This document shows positions 3,786 through 41,074 of a DNA stretch of 64,000 bases, piece by piece. This stretch comes from the human T2T-CHM13v2.0 reference genome, Homo sapiens. A program made the translations under genes and the position numbers. The first letter of the stretch is position 1; every line of letters starts with the position of its first letter. The notes under the pieces are model-generated. The model saw only the letters and a list, made by a program, of their open reading frames with translations, was not told the origin of the DNA and ran no database searches. The stretch is taken from the NCBI RefSeq assembly GCF_009914755.1, contig NC_060935.1, one strand, 5' to 3'.

Positions 3786-3800
3786 TTATGAAACTGTCCA
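3786..3800 (-). CDS. SVIP: SVIP coding part of terminal exon 4, WTVS-stop
   Basis: Long polypyrimidine tract, then tcttttctag|TGG ACA GTT TCA TAA. Total 18+17+38+4 = 77 aa. Confidence 0.96.
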   Translation of the reverse strand, partial: WTVS

Positions 3801-4074
3801 CTAGAAAAGATAAAAAAGAGACAGAAAAGTAAATTTTACTTGAAGTTATATAACAGTACTTCAGTGAACAAACAGGTAAAAAGAGGAATATGGGACATAG
3901 AAATACAAAATGATTTTTCTGAATAGCAGCTATTCATAAAATTTTACATTATAGTCCAAAGCCTGAAATAAGATGATAGTTTAAAAGCATAAAGAAGACA
4001 AAATATCTGGTCAGATTGGTGGGTAGTTGCAGGATAGCTCTGTCTCACTGTCTTGCCTGTAGTTTTCAAGAGTA

Positions 4075-4790
4075 ACTGTAGAATGTGCTGGGAATGTAAC
4101 ATCCTGGGATAGCAAATGAATGGCCAAGGACAGCTCAAGTTCTGTTCCAGTCCCTCCCTAAAGACAGGACGTCCTTCAATGCTTTAGCCCAAGGAGTCAT
4201 GTAGTACCTCCCCTTCTAACCCCCAGGTCATAAAACCCAGGGCACTCATCTGAGGTTCAAGTGGGGCACACACAGATGTCATCAACCCCAGGCAGTTTTC
4301 CTTGGGAGACAAGCTTATAATGAATCCTAGGCTTCTGTTGTCCCTTGTTGCCAATCTGTAAGTAATAAACTCACTCCACGTTAAATGTTTTTGGTTTTGT
4401 TTTGGGATTTTCTTGAGACAGGGTCTCACTCTATCGCCCAGGCTGGGGTGAGGTGGGAATGGCTCACTGCAGCCTTAACCTCGCAGGCTCAAGTCATTCT
4501 CCCACCTCAGCCTCCCGAAAAGCTAGGACCACAGGCACATGCCACCACACCTAATTTATTTTTTATTTTTGTAGAGACAGGGTCTCGCTATGTTGCCCAG
4601 GCTGGTCTCTTAACTCCTGACCTCAAGTGATCATCCCATCTTCTCAGCCTCCCAAAGCCTTCCTCTCACAGCTGAGATTACACGTGTGAGTGACTGTGCT
4701 CAGCCTCTTCATGCAAATGTTACATGCATGAGTATTCTGTCCACTGGACTCTGAAGTTGGTAACCACTGCACAGTGAACCTGCTATTCAG
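4075..4790 (+). mobile_element. Old solo LTR (probably ERVL class, LTR40/MER54-like), split by an Alu
   Basis: TATA-like cataaaacccaggg ~4228 and aataaa ~4364. LTR-like sequence resumes after the Alu. Family assigned from memory only. Confidence 0.55.
4388..4706 (-). mobile_element. Alu (AluJ-like)
   Basis: T-rich tail then gagacagggtctcact...gctcactgcagcctt...ctcccaaag. Confidence 0.9.
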
Positions 4791-5088
4791 TAGCAAGAGC
4801 CTAAATATCCAATAATCAGTAAAGGAACACAAAATAAAACACAACAAAACAAAAATTTAAAAATTCTTGTTTGAGCCAGGGAGTCAAGAAATGGCAGAAA
4901 CCATTAAAAAATGGTTTGGCAAGGTCTTTTCCTTCTTGAGTTAAGAAAATATTCCATTTGCCCCTTTGTTTAATGAAGTCTATTAAATCTGTGATAGGTC
5001 CTGAAGAGCCATTAGGATAGAACCAGAGATATTTGGCAATCTCTTGATAGTGTTTTCCAAGTACATCCAAGGAATATTATTGGGTGTT

Positions 5089-5190
5089 TTATATATATAT
5101 ACACACACACATATATATATATATACATATATATACGTATATATATATGTATATATATACGTATATATATACACACACATATATATAAAA
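5089..5190. repeat. (TA)n/(CA)n microsatellite
   Basis: Visible dinucleotide runs. Confidence 0.9.
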
Positions 5191-5407
5191 TCTATGTTTA
5201 AATAAATTTTCAACATTAAAGATTAATCCAAGTAAACTTGCTTTTCTTCATTGTACAATTTCTTAGAGGCCATAATTCTGTGCCTTTTTTAGTCTCTAAG
5301 AAGGGGATATAGTCTACAATATACAATTTAGCATTTTTAAACATTTATTCCCATGGGACTCTATCTTCCAAAACATCTCTCTTAGGACAAGTGTTATAAA
5401 CGCTAGG

Positions 5408-5580
5408 ATAGTGATTCTCAATCTGGGTTCACATTAGATTACCTTGGGAAGCTTAAAACAGTCCTGATGGCTAAACCCTACTCTCAGAGACTGACTGGTG
5501 TGAGGTGGAGCCCAATGAACAATCCTTTTTGAAAGCTGCCTATGAAACTCCAACATGCAGCTAAGGTGGAAAGCCATTGT
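5408..5580. mobile_element. MER5-type hAT-Charlie DNA transposon
   Basis: agtgattctcaa...cacattaga...ggtgtgaggtggagccca...aaagccattg pattern. Confidence 0.6.
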
Positions 5581-38573: not shown

Positions 38574-38678
38574 TAGGAGTCCTGGTTCTGGAATAGGAGA
38601 AGGCCTTGAAAACCTTTTATTCAGTCTCCTCTTCTCTTTCTTTAGGTGTTGCATATTCTGAATACGTTTATTTGCAAG
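38574..38678 (-). CDS. CCDC179: CCDC179 coding exon 3, [35 protein letters not shown]
   Basis: tttttctaaag|CTT GCA AAT ... CTC CTA|gtaagtat. 105 nt, phase 0/0. Embedded in ORF 38535..38801. Basic, helix-like segment. Confidence 0.92.
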
Positions 38679-39229
38679 CTTTAGAAAAATTAAAATGAAA
38701 GAAAAATCATACTTTTTTGTAACATATAAAGGTAACATTCTGATTACATTTTTGGTTTGTGTCAATAAAAAAGGTAAACACCACCACTGCAAACGGTTCA
38801 CATAACTACATAGAAATAGGGCGAAAAATCTCTTTCATTCAAATGTATGGTTCATAGGTGAAGAAAACCACATTGGAGCATCAGTAGGGTTTTCAAATAA
38901 GACTATTCTTGATTCTCATCTTACCACTGCATACACTTAAGTAGATCCAGACTCATGGATTAGTGTGCTTACTTTTGCTTTAAAAATAATGTTCATTAAG
39001 GACACCTAGGGAATTTTCTCTATAGAAATATGAAAACAATTATTCACTCCTTTGAAATGTTGCATGACACACATAGCTTTTTATGCCACCATTGTGTGGC
39101 GTCTACAAGTAGCAGATACCTAGGAGATCAAACTAGAATGCTTTTAAGATAATGAAATACAGTAATAGAATAGAAAGGATATGAATAACAATAACTTTTT
39201 TTATCCACTTCCAGTGAAGTATCAATTGG

Positions 39230-39915
39230 TACAATTGCTTTGAAAACCAACTTTTTAAAAAATCCACTGATAACAGAATATAAACTTGAACAATTGCTTT
39301 GAAAACAGTGTGGCACTACTTTCTAACAATAAAAAATTTGCTTTTCCTATGATTCAACCATTACACTCCTGCCTAAATAATCAAATGGCATTCTTGTGCA
39401 TGGGGCAAGAAGATGTGTACTAGAATGTTTGCAATAGTACTATTCATTTTAGGAAAATGTAAAAATAACACAATGTCCATAAACAAGAGAAAGGATTAAT
39501 GAACTGTGATATGTTCCATGACAAAATATTGAACAGCAGTGAAAATAAAGAAACTATATACAGCAATGTAGATAAATCTTAGGAAATAATATTGAGAAAA
39601 AAGAGTAAATCATACACTAAATTTTGTGTGATCCTATGTTTATAAAGTTCAAAACCAAGCAAAAGCAAATAGTGCACTTATAGAGACACCTATGTAACAA
39701 ACTATTAAAGAAGAGGAAGAGATTGATGTAGCTAAAATTCAAGATGGAGGTTACCTCTGGGAGAGACCTTAGGAGGTAGAATAGAAAAGCATTCCCTAGC
39801 TGGATTCAGAAATACCTAATATTTTAATCCTTAAATGGGAGGCATATTGTAATTTATAAATTATATCTGCCACATCTATTTTTGTATATGTGTCAAATGT
39901 TACATTAAAAAATAA
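39230..39915 (+). mobile_element. L1ME-type 3' fragment in CCDC179 intron 2
   Basis: ctttgaaaacagtgtggca...caaccattacactcct...gtttataaagttcaaaa. Confidence 0.65.
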
Positions 39916-40104
39916 CATAAGCCATTTAGTTTACCCTAGTTAAGACCCATTCCAATAGTAGTCATTAGATCCCAGAGTCCCAAGAAATATACTGAAGTGT
40001 CTACTTAATACAAGTTCTATTATGTTAGGGACCACTACATAAAGGAACAAGTTACAAGCACAATGTTTAAACAACCAGAACCTAGTTCTTTATTTAAACA
40101 TTAC

Positions 40105-40149
40105 CTGCCGCTCAGTGACCTCTGAAGGATGATGTTGTCTTGGTCCTTC
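40105..40149 (-). CDS. CCDC179: CCDC179 coding exon 2, EGPRQHHPSEVTERQ
   Basis: tttattatatag|GAA GGA CCA AGA ... CGG CAG|gtaatg. 45 nt, phase 0/0. Confidence 0.9.
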
Positions 40150-41029
40150 CTATATAATAAACAAAATTAAAACACATTCACACAAAAAAGTCATTAAAAA
40201 CAGTAAATTAATTATTATAATAGGAAGCCTATGCTACTTTTAAATTTATGTATTATATGAATCATTTCAACTATAAGAAGCAGGTTAAAAAAACAAAAAG
40301 AAAAAAGTCAAGTTCAGAATAAAAACATCTAAGATAAAAATTGTGGTGGAAGATGGAGACGATATTATGATAAAAAAGAACCAGCTGTGAACCACCTTAC
40401 AGATAAAAGGCAGAGTATAGAGATATATTCGGGAGGGAAAGAATGTACGAGAAATCGAAAAATGCATGTTTCTGCTTCTACAGGACTTCAGTGGTGCTAT
40501 TGAGCAATCTAGTCTTCAATCTGGTTTCAAAGCCTAGGAGTAATTGGTGATGTGATTGAGATCGTATGGTTTTCTGAAGCACAGGGAGCTTGGCTGTTAG
40601 TTTTCGAGATTCTCACCACTTCCTCTATTTCTTGATTGTACCTTAAATAACTCCTCCTTCACTCGTTTTGATCCAATCTTTTAACCAGAAGACCCAAGAG
40701 CAATCTGTTCCACATCTGGCAATTGAGAACTTTATCCTGCTCCCTACTTCTGTAATTTCCACTCCACCTCCTAGGGCAGGCCAATGGGGCAGTCAACATA
40801 CAGGTGATGTACCTGACCCCTAAGCACACAGTGGGTGGAGCTTTTTCTTGTTTCAGAGGGGTCCAGCAGTCAGGATGTAGTCTGTCTACATCACCTGGAA
40901 TTTCCCAACCCCCAGCACCAAACCACATTTACAAGAGTTAGAAGCACCATGGCCAAGGCCACAGTGGCCTGGAGCTCAAGGCACAGGACAGAGTGGCAGA
41001 GTTGAGGTTGTAGGCCCCAGCAGACTCAC

Positions 41030-41074
41030 AGGGTTGACTTGGGAAGGCTCGATGTCCCAGCAATACAGGCACAT
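41030..41074 (-). CDS. CCDC179: CCDC179 coding exon 1, MCLYCWDIEPSQVNP
   Basis: cacggcATG TGC CTG TAT TGC TGG ... AAC CCT|gtgagt. 45 nt, phase 0, G at -3. Confidence 0.9.

What the first reader, a model, noticed from the sequence alone, without database searches (positions are those of the whole stretch)
3786..41074. CCDC179 looks like an unrecognised tandem paralogue of SVIP (a hidden two-gene microprotein family)
Seen in sequence: the genes are neighbours on the same strand. Both have 4 coding exons, all introns phase 0, of 18/17/38/4 versus 15/15/35/3 codons. Exon 1 starts ATG GGG CTG TGT vs ATG TGC CTG TAT, and both end in gtgagt. Exon 2 begins tag|GAA in both with Arg (AGA) at codon 4. 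Exon 3 uses the uncommon AAG acceptor in both and ends at gtaagtat in both. Peptides align: AASRGILDVQSVQEKRKK / [18 protein letters not shown] and PPPEGGLR|WTVS / [11 protein letters not shown]. Inference: an ancient local duplication followed by rapid divergence of one copy. No intronic similarity is evident by eye and old L1M/L2/MIR insertions are not shared, which fits great age. I am not aware of this relationship being described, but I cannot check the literature.
Basis: partly seen in the sequence, partly recalled or inferred. Interest (0 to 1): 0.92.

Follow-up and report, generated by a model that had tools for sequence, protein, structure and literature searches.

The report
CCDC179 is a diverged SVIP duplicate
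The uncharacterised human gene CCDC179 is very probably a fast-evolving tandem copy of its neighbour SVIP, a small regulator of the p97/VCP ATPase, and it has lost the two motifs SVIP is known to need for its function.

Summary
The resemblance is far beyond chance. The spliced human proteins give a local score of 73, against 24.8 ± 4.6 for shuffles (0 of 5000 reach it). A profile of 32 CCDC179 orthologues aligned end to end with a profile of 23 SVIPs: hhalign E 5e-6, probability 86%. None of 230 within-exon column shuffles came near that score. Each half of the gene is significant on its own. All three phase-0 introns fall at aligned positions. About 74 nt around the last coding exon are still alike in DNA.

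CCDC179 is therefore a tandem paralogue of SVIP. It lacks the VCP-interacting motif (0 of 32 sequences, against 23 of 23 SVIPs) and the Met-Gly myristoylation start. It keeps N-terminal cysteines, a basic helix aligned with SVIP's second, "H4-like" helix, and a C-terminal GL-x-W motif.

Pfam does not join the two proteins. Five full-text searches found no description of the link. Gene-tree databases could not be checked. The age of the duplication is unresolved.

The parts
10357..10410 (-). SVIP coding exon 1, 18 codons. Carries the Met-Gly myristoylation start and Cys4/Cys7. Followed by gtgagt.
   Evidence: MG start in 23 of 23 SVIPs
8486..8536 (-). SVIP coding exon 2, 17 codons. Carries the VCP-interacting motif R-x5-AA-x2-R.
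   Evidence: motif in 23 of 23 SVIPs; helix 18-38 in the model
7869..7982 (-). SVIP coding exon 3, 38 codons. Encodes the second ('H4-like') basic helix, a Pro-rich linker and GGLR. AAG acceptor; followed by gtaagtat.
   Evidence: best non-self hit of CCDC179 orthologues in the window
3786..3800 (-). SVIP last coding exon: W-T-V-S and the stop codon.
41030..41074 (-). CCDC179 coding exon 1, 15 codons. Starts Met-Cys-Leu. Followed by gtgagt.
   Evidence: MC start in 28 of 32 orthologues
40105..40149 (-). CCDC179 coding exon 2, 15 codons. The two flanking Arg of the former VIM keep their spacing, but the hydrophobic/Ala-Ala core is replaced (H-H-P-S-E-V in human).
   Evidence: VIM in 0 of 32
38574..38678 (-). 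CCDC179 coding exon 3, 35 codons. Encodes the conserved basic helix, a Pro-rich linker and PGLL. AAG acceptor; followed by gtaagtat.
28178..28189 (-). CCDC179 last coding exon: W-S-S and a TGA stop, followed directly by a TAA that aligns with the SVIP stop codon.
3782..3853 (-). SVIP side of the DNA-level similarity: the last ~53 nt of intron 3, the last coding exon and the first 4 nt of the 3' UTR.
   Evidence: 74-column alignment; score 28; 0 of 2000 shuffles reach it
28171..28243 (-). CCDC179 side of the same DNA-level similarity.
   Evidence: the 415 other pyrimidine-rich AG sites in the window score at most 18 against the SVIP site

Best explanation
CCDC179 arose by tandem duplication of the whole four-exon SVIP coding unit. 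It lies on the same strand, about 17 kb upstream of SVIP. The duplication is no younger than the common ancestor of the placental orders in which named orthologues were found.

The copy then diverged quickly, to about 20-30% identity, while SVIP stayed almost frozen.

**Shown here**
- The two proteins are homologous over their full length.
- The three phase-0 introns sit at identical aligned positions.
- Residual DNA similarity remains at the last coding exon.
- The R-x5-AA-x2-R VCP-interacting motif is lost.
- The Met-Gly myristoylation start is lost.
- An N-terminal Cys is kept.
- A basic helix aligned with SVIP's second, 'H4-like' helix is kept.
- A Pro-rich linker followed by G-L-[LI]-W is kept.

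**Inferred**
- CCDC179 no longer docks on the p97/VCP N domain and is no longer myristoyl-anchored in the way SVIP is.
- It is therefore not a redundant SVIP. It is a neofunctionalised small protein of spermatids.
- Its conserved helix and C-terminal motif carry whatever activity remains. That activity may be a VIM-independent contact with p97 or with another partner.
- The start codon appears to have moved two codons downstream: SVIP Leu3 (CTG) corresponds to the CCDC179 ATG. That shift would have removed the Gly2 myristoylation signal.
For: **Protein-level homology**
- Pairwise, human spliced proteins: local score 73, against shuffles of 24.8 ± 4.6; 0 of 5000 reach it.
- Profiles: hhalign of 13 CCDC179 against 23 SVIP gives E 3.9e-5 over 68 columns. 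With 32 CCDC179 it gives E 5e-6, probability 86%, over 69 columns. The signal grows as the profile deepens.
- Controls: 0 of 300 full column shuffles reach the score (maximum 19.6 against 29.5), and reversed profiles give 16.1 and 15.0. 0 of 230 shuffles confined within exons reach it (maximum 18.1 against 36.9).
- Halves tested separately: exons 1-2 score 20.7 (E 5.6e-5) and exons 3-4 score 19.0 (E 4.4e-4). 0 of 110 shuffles reach either.
- Pairs of related species by BLASTP: rhinoceros CCDC179 (Ceratotherium) against rhinoceros SVIP (Diceros) gives E 9e-7 over 73 residues. A bat pair (Molossus, Myotis) gives E 1e-5.

**Gene structure**
- In the alignment the exon boundaries coincide: P15|E16 with P18|V19, Q30|S31 with E35|A36, and L65|W66 with R73|W74. 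All are phase 0.

**DNA**
- The exon 4 region scores 28. Shuffles have a mean of 8.5 and a maximum of 15 (0 of 2000). The 415 other acceptor-like sites in the window score at most 18.

**Motifs**
- VIM: 23 of 23 SVIPs, 0 of 32 CCDC179.
- MG start: 23 of 23 SVIPs, 1 of 32 CCDC179. MC start: 28 of 32 CCDC179.

**Structure models**
- CCDC179 has one helix, residues 23-52, with pLDDT above 90 in its core.
- SVIP has helices 18-38 and 44-64.

**Literature (passages read)**
- SVIP needs Gly2 myristoylation and its VIM to relocalise p97 (PMC3164199).
- The VIM consensus is Rx2h3AAx2Rh (PMC5389986).
- SVIP residues 18-64 form a VIM plus an H4-like helix, and SVIP inhibits the p97 ATPase with an IC50 of 67 nM (PMC10716044).
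- CCDC179 is among the top-loaded genes of a spermiogenesis component in human testis single-cell data (preprint 10.1101/2023.09.23.558896).
Against: - No CCDC179 protein matches Pfam PF15811, even at E 10: 0 of 13 and 0 of 3.
- The CCDC179 profile searched against 1.84 billion representative proteins returned 33 hits at E <= 0.001. All were CCDC179-like and none was an SVIP. The similarity is therefore below database-wide significance. It is convincing only because the comparison was specified in advance by adjacency.
- hhalign probability is 70-92%, not above 95%.
- DNA similarity around exons 1, 2 and 3 is not significant: 493, 710 and 67 of 2000 shuffles reach the observed scores.
- The language-model atlas gave no usable hit.
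- The functional part is inference only. No binding, lipidation or protein-level expression data were examined. Motif loss would equally fit a copy that is decaying, although the ORF is kept in 24 or more named species.
- The start-codon shift rests on a few nucleotides of one species.
Confidence: 0.87

Rival explanations
1. Only the 3' part is related. Exons 3-4 of one gene were copied or converted from the neighbour, by exon capture or gene conversion, while exons 1-2 of CCDC179 have an independent origin.
For: The only significant DNA similarity lies at exon 4. The strongest single-sequence protein match is exon 3. Exon 2 of CCDC179 has none of the VIM core.
Against: Exons 1-2 alone give hhalign score 20.7, E 5.6e-5, with 0 of 110 shuffles reaching it. 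The exon 1/2 and exon 2/3 boundaries also coincide in the alignment, and both VIM-flanking Arg positions keep their spacing. BLASTP alignments in rhinoceros and bat run from residue 1 to the end.
Confidence: 0.05
2. Chance or compositional resemblance. Two unrelated short proteins, both rich in Lys/Arg/Glu and Pro, happen to be neighbours with similar exon sizes.
For: Both proteins are short, largely disordered and carry a Lys-rich helix. Pfam and the database-wide search do not connect them.
Against: Shuffles that keep the composition of every column, and even of every exon, never approach the observed score. BLASTP with compositional adjustment still gives E 1e-6 to 9e-7. Three of three intron positions and phases coincide. 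There is a DNA match at exon 4.
Confidence: 0.03
3. The homology is real but already recorded in a gene-tree or family resource (Ensembl Compara, PANTHER, OrthoDB, eggNOG, InterPro). In that case nothing here is new.
For: Some pairs of related species reach BLASTP E about 1e-6 in a single comparison. An all-against-all clustering pipeline that uses synteny could have joined them.
Against: Pfam's precomputed PF15811 label is carried by the SVIPs and by none of the clean CCDC179 proteins. It appears only on chimeric CCDC179-SVIP models. 21 papers mention CCDC179, none in the title or abstract. The 9 papers that hold both gene names (8 listed) are GWAS or locus studies by title; in the two whose passages I read, the genes appear only as neighbours. 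One paper states that relevant research on CCDC179 is lacking (PMC9300105, passage).
Confidence: 0.25

Closest known systems
[quoted passage not shown]
   Same: - Adjacent on the same strand.
- Four coding exons with three phase-0 introns at aligned positions.
- Full-length profile-profile match.
- N-terminal Cys pair.
- A basic helix encoded by exon 3.
- A Pro-rich linker, and G-L-x-W with the intron directly before the Trp.
   Different: - No Met-Gly myristoylation start.
- No R-x5-AA-x2-R VIM (0 of 32, against 23 of 23).
- No match to PF15811.
- One predicted helix instead of two.
- A long branch in the tree (about 2.2 changes per column), whereas SVIP is nearly invariant among mammals.
- Spermatid-associated transcript (preprint 10.1101/2023.09.23.558896, passage). 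One GWAS paper calls SVIP predominantly liver-expressed (PMC9300105, passage).
VIM plus H4 module of UBXD1 (UBXN6)
   Same: Braxton et al. [quoted passage not shown] The conserved CCDC179 helix aligns with that second helix.
   Different: CCDC179 has no VIM to tether the helix to p97. No sequence comparison with UBXD1 was made here, so any H4-like function is conjecture.
Other linear-motif p97 cofactors with a VIM (gp78/AMFR and others)
   Same: The ancestor of CCDC179 carried a VIM, and two Arg at the motif's outer positions remain.
   Different: The consensus Rx2h3AAx2Rh (PMC5389986, passage) is not met. In CCDC179 the core typically reads H-P-S-E-V and includes a proline.

Membership tests
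SVIP family (Pfam PF15811) | Match to the PF15811 profile | tested here: not met
   0 of 13 CCDC179 proteins at E <= 10 and 0 of 3. SVIPs carry the precomputed PF15811 label.
SVIP family (Pfam PF15811) | N-terminal Met-Gly (myristoylation site, needed for membrane anchoring; PMC3164199 passage) | tested here: not met
   MG start in 23 of 23 SVIPs. In CCDC179, MC start in 28 of 32 and MG in 1 of 32; that one model has an unrelated-looking N-terminus.
SVIP family (Pfam PF15811) | VCP-interacting motif R-x5-AA-x2-R | tested here: not met
   23 of 23 SVIPs, 0 of 32 CCDC179. Only the two outer Arg/Lys positions align.
SVIP family (Pfam PF15811) | Second basic helix ('H4-like', SVIP about 44-64) | tested here: inconclusive
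   A confident helix 23-52 in CCDC179 aligns with SVIP helix 44-64. Functional equivalence is untested.
SVIP family (Pfam PF15811) | C-terminal G-L-R-W motif | tested here: not met
   GLRW in 23 of 23 SVIPs. CCDC179 has GLLW or GILW in 12 of 32; the other 20 models lack a W-initial last exon. The Arg is replaced, while Gly, Leu, Trp and the intron before Trp are kept.
SVIP family (Pfam PF15811) | Common descent: full-length profile similarity and shared intron positions and phases | tested here: met
   hhalign E 5e-6; controls; three of three introns coincide.
SVIP family (Pfam PF15811) | Binding to p97/VCP and inhibition of its ATPase | not testable with these tools
   No eukaryotic p97 sequence can be supplied to the complex predictor. 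No experimental data on CCDC179 were found.

The most novel reading that the evidence does not exclude
CCDC179 is a spermatid-specific derivative of SVIP. It has shed both the membrane anchor and the p97 N-domain docking motif, but keeps the H4-like helix and the G-L-x-W tail. It would act as a VIM-independent modulator of p97/VCP during spermiogenesis, or of SVIP itself or another AAA+ ATPase. That would make it a previously unseen, minimal class of p97 regulator in mammals.
Probability: 0.12. Interest if true: 0.7.

Novelty: new variant of a known kind. Interest (0 to 1): 0.52.

Why it matters
CCDC179 is a human protein-coding gene with no assigned family. One paper that mentions it states that relevant research on it is lacking (PMC9300105, passage).

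Linking it to SVIP gives it an origin and a concrete set of hypotheses about p97/VCP, lipid anchoring and spermiogenesis.

It also gives the p97 field a natural dissection of SVIP. CCDC179 is a paralogue that has kept the second helix and the C-terminal motif under selection for roughly the whole placental radiation (my estimate from the named taxa), while discarding the VIM and the myristoylation site. That pattern suggests those two retained elements have a function of their own.

It also shows why very short, fast-evolving paralogues escape family databases: the similarity sits below database-wide thresholds.

Tried and rejected
- **Pfam.** Scans of the two exon 3 peptides and of 3 and then 13 CCDC179 proteins gave no SVIP match. 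The few hits at E 0.02-0.16 were single-member chance matches.
- **Representative-library search with the 13-sequence CCDC179 profile.** 33 hits, and no SVIP among them. It enlarged the CCDC179 alignment but gave no independent link.
- **Protein atlas.** No usable hit.
- **Dating the duplication.**
  - The ML tree of 12 CCDC179 and 23 SVIP sequences puts CCDC179 on a long branch attached to an unresolved placental SVIP comb. The flatworm SVIPs attach to the same comb.
  - AU tests reject neither 'all tetrapod SVIPs form one side' (p 0.161) nor 'placental SVIP plus CCDC179 form one side' (p 0.166).
  - Mean pairwise scores of CCDC179 fall from placental (68) to marsupial (53) to lizard/frog (44) to flatworm (36) SVIPs. 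This could equally reflect slow evolution of placental SVIP, so I do not use it to date the event.
- **blastn between the two gene regions.** 66 segments were found. The strongest lie at 157-455 / 28830-29127 and 4408-4656 / 28867-29118, inside stretches the hub table lists as masked repeats. Many others are a simple repeat near 5100-5170 / 31609-31656. Only 40 of the 66 were inspected.
- **A third copy in the window.** None was seen in the tblastn output that I could read; that output was cut.
- **dN/dS.** Not possible, because no orthologue DNA was available.
- **First homologue search.** I repeated it with window references extended a few codons into the flanking introns.
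Full report
**Observation**

I read both genes on the minus strand. SVIP has coding exons of 18, 17, 38 and 4 codons, at 10357-10410, 8486-8536, 7869-7982 and 3786-3800. CCDC179 has 15, 15, 35 and 3 codons, at 41030-41074, 40105-40149, 38574-38678 and 28178-28189. 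All six introns lie between codons.

- gtgagt after exon 1 in both genes;
- tag|GAA at the start of exon 2, with AGA as codon 4;
- an AAG acceptor before exon 3 and gtaagtat after it;
- TGG as the first codon of the last exon.

**Is it more than chance?**

- Exon 3 against exon 3 by BLASTP, with compositional adjustment, gives 25.4 bits and E 1e-6 for that single comparison.
- The spliced human proteins give a Smith-Waterman score of 73. Shuffles give 24.8 ± 4.6, and 0 of 5000 reach 73.
- I searched CCDC179 orthologues against all six frames of the 64-kb window. The best match outside CCDC179's own exons was SVIP exon 3, at E 2.5e-4 to 3e-3 (that output was cut, and I read only part of it).

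**Orthologues**

The protein database holds vertebrate proteins.
- The same approach retrieved 21 SVIP-like proteins.
- A mixed alignment, used purely for retrieval, gave 109 proteins at E <= 10 among 172 candidates.

Named CCDC179 proteins come from primates, tree shrew, colugo, lagomorphs, rodents, bats, perissodactyls, artiodactyls, cetaceans and a carnivore. By my own taxonomic knowledge these are all placental mammals. Named SVIPs also include marsupials, lizards, a frog and flatworms.

- A 13-sequence CCDC179 alignment against a 23-sequence SVIP alignment gives hhalign probability 70%, E 3.9e-5, over 68 aligned columns.
- I then searched the 1.84-billion representative library with the CCDC179 profile. 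It returned 33 hits at E <= 0.001, all CCDC179-like and none SVIP.
- I enlarged the CCDC179 alignment to 32 sequences. The match improved to probability 86%, E 5e-6, score 36.8, over 69 columns.

Controls, run with local hhalign:
- Column shuffles of the SVIP alignment: n = 300, mean 10.3, maximum 19.6, against an observed 29.5.
- Reversed profiles: 16.1 and 15.0.
- Shuffles confined within each exon, which keep local composition: n = 230, mean 10.9, maximum 18.1, against an observed 36.9.
- The two halves tested separately: exons 1-2 score 20.7 and exons 3-4 score 19.0. In each case 0 of 110 shuffles reach the score.
- Rhinoceros CCDC179 (Ceratotherium) against rhinoceros SVIP (Diceros) aligns over 73 residues at E 9e-7 by BLASTP. 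A bat pair (Molossus, Myotis) gives E 1e-5.

**Gene structure as independent evidence**

hhalign knew nothing about introns. Even so, its alignment puts the CCDC179 boundaries P15|E16, Q30|S31 and L65|W66 exactly opposite the SVIP boundaries at 18|19, 35|36 and 73|74 (using the exon lengths). It places one indel in each of the first three exons, and these account for their length differences.

**DNA**

- Around exons 1-3 the nucleotide similarity is not significant. The observed scores are reached by 493, 710 and 67 of 2000 shuffles.
- Around the last coding exon it is significant. The score is 28, against shuffles with mean 8.5 and maximum 15 (0 of 2000).
- The 415 other pyrimidine-rich AG sites in the window score at most 18 against the SVIP site. 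The CCDC179 site itself did not pass my pyrimidine filter and was scored separately.
- The alignment spans 74 columns, 3782-3853 against 28171-28243. It covers about 53 nt of intron, the exon and the start of the 3' UTR.
- In CCDC179 the TGA stop sits one codon before a TAA that aligns with the SVIP stop.
- Elsewhere the two gene regions share only interspersed and simple repeats, judged from 40 of 66 blastn segments inspected.

**What CCDC179 kept and what it lost**

| Feature | SVIP | CCDC179 |
|---|---|---|
| VIM, R-x5-AA-x2-R | 23 of 23 | 0 of 32 |
| Met-Gly start | 23 of 23 | 1 of 32 |
| Met-Cys start | not counted | 28 of 32 |
| G-L-R-W | 23 of 23 | 0 of 32 |
| GLLW or GILW | not counted | 12 of 32 |

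- Only the two outer basic positions of the VIM still align. The core is typically H-P-S-E-V.
- The 20 CCDC179 models without GLLW/GILW lack a W-initial last exon.
- Alignments pair CCDC179 Cys2 and Cys5 with SVIP Cys4 and Cys7.
- AlphaFold2 models give CCDC179 a single confident helix, residues 23-52. They give SVIP two helices, 18-38 and 44-64. The CCDC179 helix aligns mainly with the second SVIP helix.

**Literature (passages read, not whole papers)**

- SVIP needs Gly2 myristoylation and its VIM to relocalise p97 (PMC3164199).
- The VIM consensus is Rx2h3AAx2Rh (PMC5389986).
- SVIP residues 18-64 are described as a VIM plus an 'H4-like' helix. SVIP inhibits the p97 ATPase with an IC50 of 67 nM (PMC10716044; PMC10641518).
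- CCDC179 is listed among the top-loaded genes of a spermiogenesis component in human testis single-cell data (preprint 10.1101/2023.09.23.558896).

**Interpretation**

CCDC179 is a tandem paralogue of SVIP that diverged rapidly. I infer that it no longer works like SVIP, because it has neither the myristoyl anchor nor the VIM that docks on the p97 N domain. The helix and the C-terminal motif, conserved across placental orders, are probably the functional core.

Whether that core still touches p97 is open. The apparent move of the start codon, from SVIP Met1 to the position of Leu3, is an inference from the alignments and from one species' DNA.

**Age**

The age is unresolved.
- The tree leaves the attachment point open.
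- AU tests reject neither an origin before tetrapods (p 0.161) nor an origin after the marsupial split (p 0.166).
- The gradient of similarity to placental, marsupial, lizard/frog and flatworm SVIPs is suggestive, but it is confounded by how slowly placental SVIP evolves.

**Novelty**

- Pfam does not join the two proteins.
- Full-text searches for CCDC179 alone (21 papers, none with the name in title or abstract), for CCDC179 with SVIP (9 papers), for CCDC179 with 'paralog' (2 papers), for SVIP with 'paralog' (29 papers), and for SVIP with 'small VCP', 'homolog' and 'testis' (6 papers) found no statement of the relationship.
- The passages I read treat the two genes only as neighbours in a locus.
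- Gene-tree resources and bioRxiv supplements could not be consulted. I leave about a one-in-four chance that a database already links them.

**Verdict**

This is a solid, modestly surprising homology. It gives an orphan human gene a family and a testable function.

Noticed in passing
proteins P0031, P0036, P0064, P0065; in the window, exon 3 of CCDC179 (38574-38678) joined to SVIP exon 2 (8486-8536) or exon 3 (7869-7982): Gene models in sheep (124 and 92 aa), black rhinoceros (109 aa) and fin whale (92 aa) join CCDC179 exons in frame to SVIP exon 2 or 3 onward. These are read-through or conjoined CCDC179-SVIP models, possible because every intron is phase 0. Two of them are why 'PF15811' appears on proteins with a CCDC179 N-terminus.
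   Followed up: partly
proteins P0088, P0129, P0142: After ...PGLL, an alpaca CCDC179 model and two unnamed divergent CCDC179-like proteins share a different short C-terminal tail, roughly x-P-x-x-D-x-V-V. It replaces the W-initial last exon and suggests a conserved alternative last exon in some lineages.
   Followed up: no
window 30045-30145 (-) and 37267-37304 (-): These are alternative CCDC179 exons from the hub table. The 30045-30145 exon, read in phase 0, opens with the same residues (S-Q-M-F-F-K-E-M-S-T) as the extra C-terminal segment of orangutan and drill isoform models (P0070, P0071). The human reading then departs from theirs.
   Followed up: partly
proteins P0005, P0010, P0011, P0104-P0106, P0131-P0139: Many database 'proteins' are open reading frames that run from intron into exon 3 of SVIP or CCDC179 and out into the next intron. 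Some stand for hundreds of short contigs. They look like gene calls made without splicing on mammalian DNA fragments. They inflate hit lists and are not real isoforms.
   Followed up: no
proteins P0141 (401 aa) and P0143 (170 aa): Two unnamed proteins built of tandem repeats (units of roughly 57 aa) match the exon 2 part of the CCDC179 profile (P-E-G-x-x-H-x-H-P-S-like) at E 9e-7 and 3e-4. They could be chance matches to low-complexity sequence or amplified exon-like units. Unexplained.
   Followed up: no
window 41075-41080 (-) against 10405-10410 (-): The two codons just upstream of the CCDC179 ATG read CAC GGC. In the protein-guided register they lie opposite SVIP's ATG GGG. This may be a relic of the ancestral Met-Gly start, now in the 5' UTR. 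It rests on six bases in one species.
   Followed up: no
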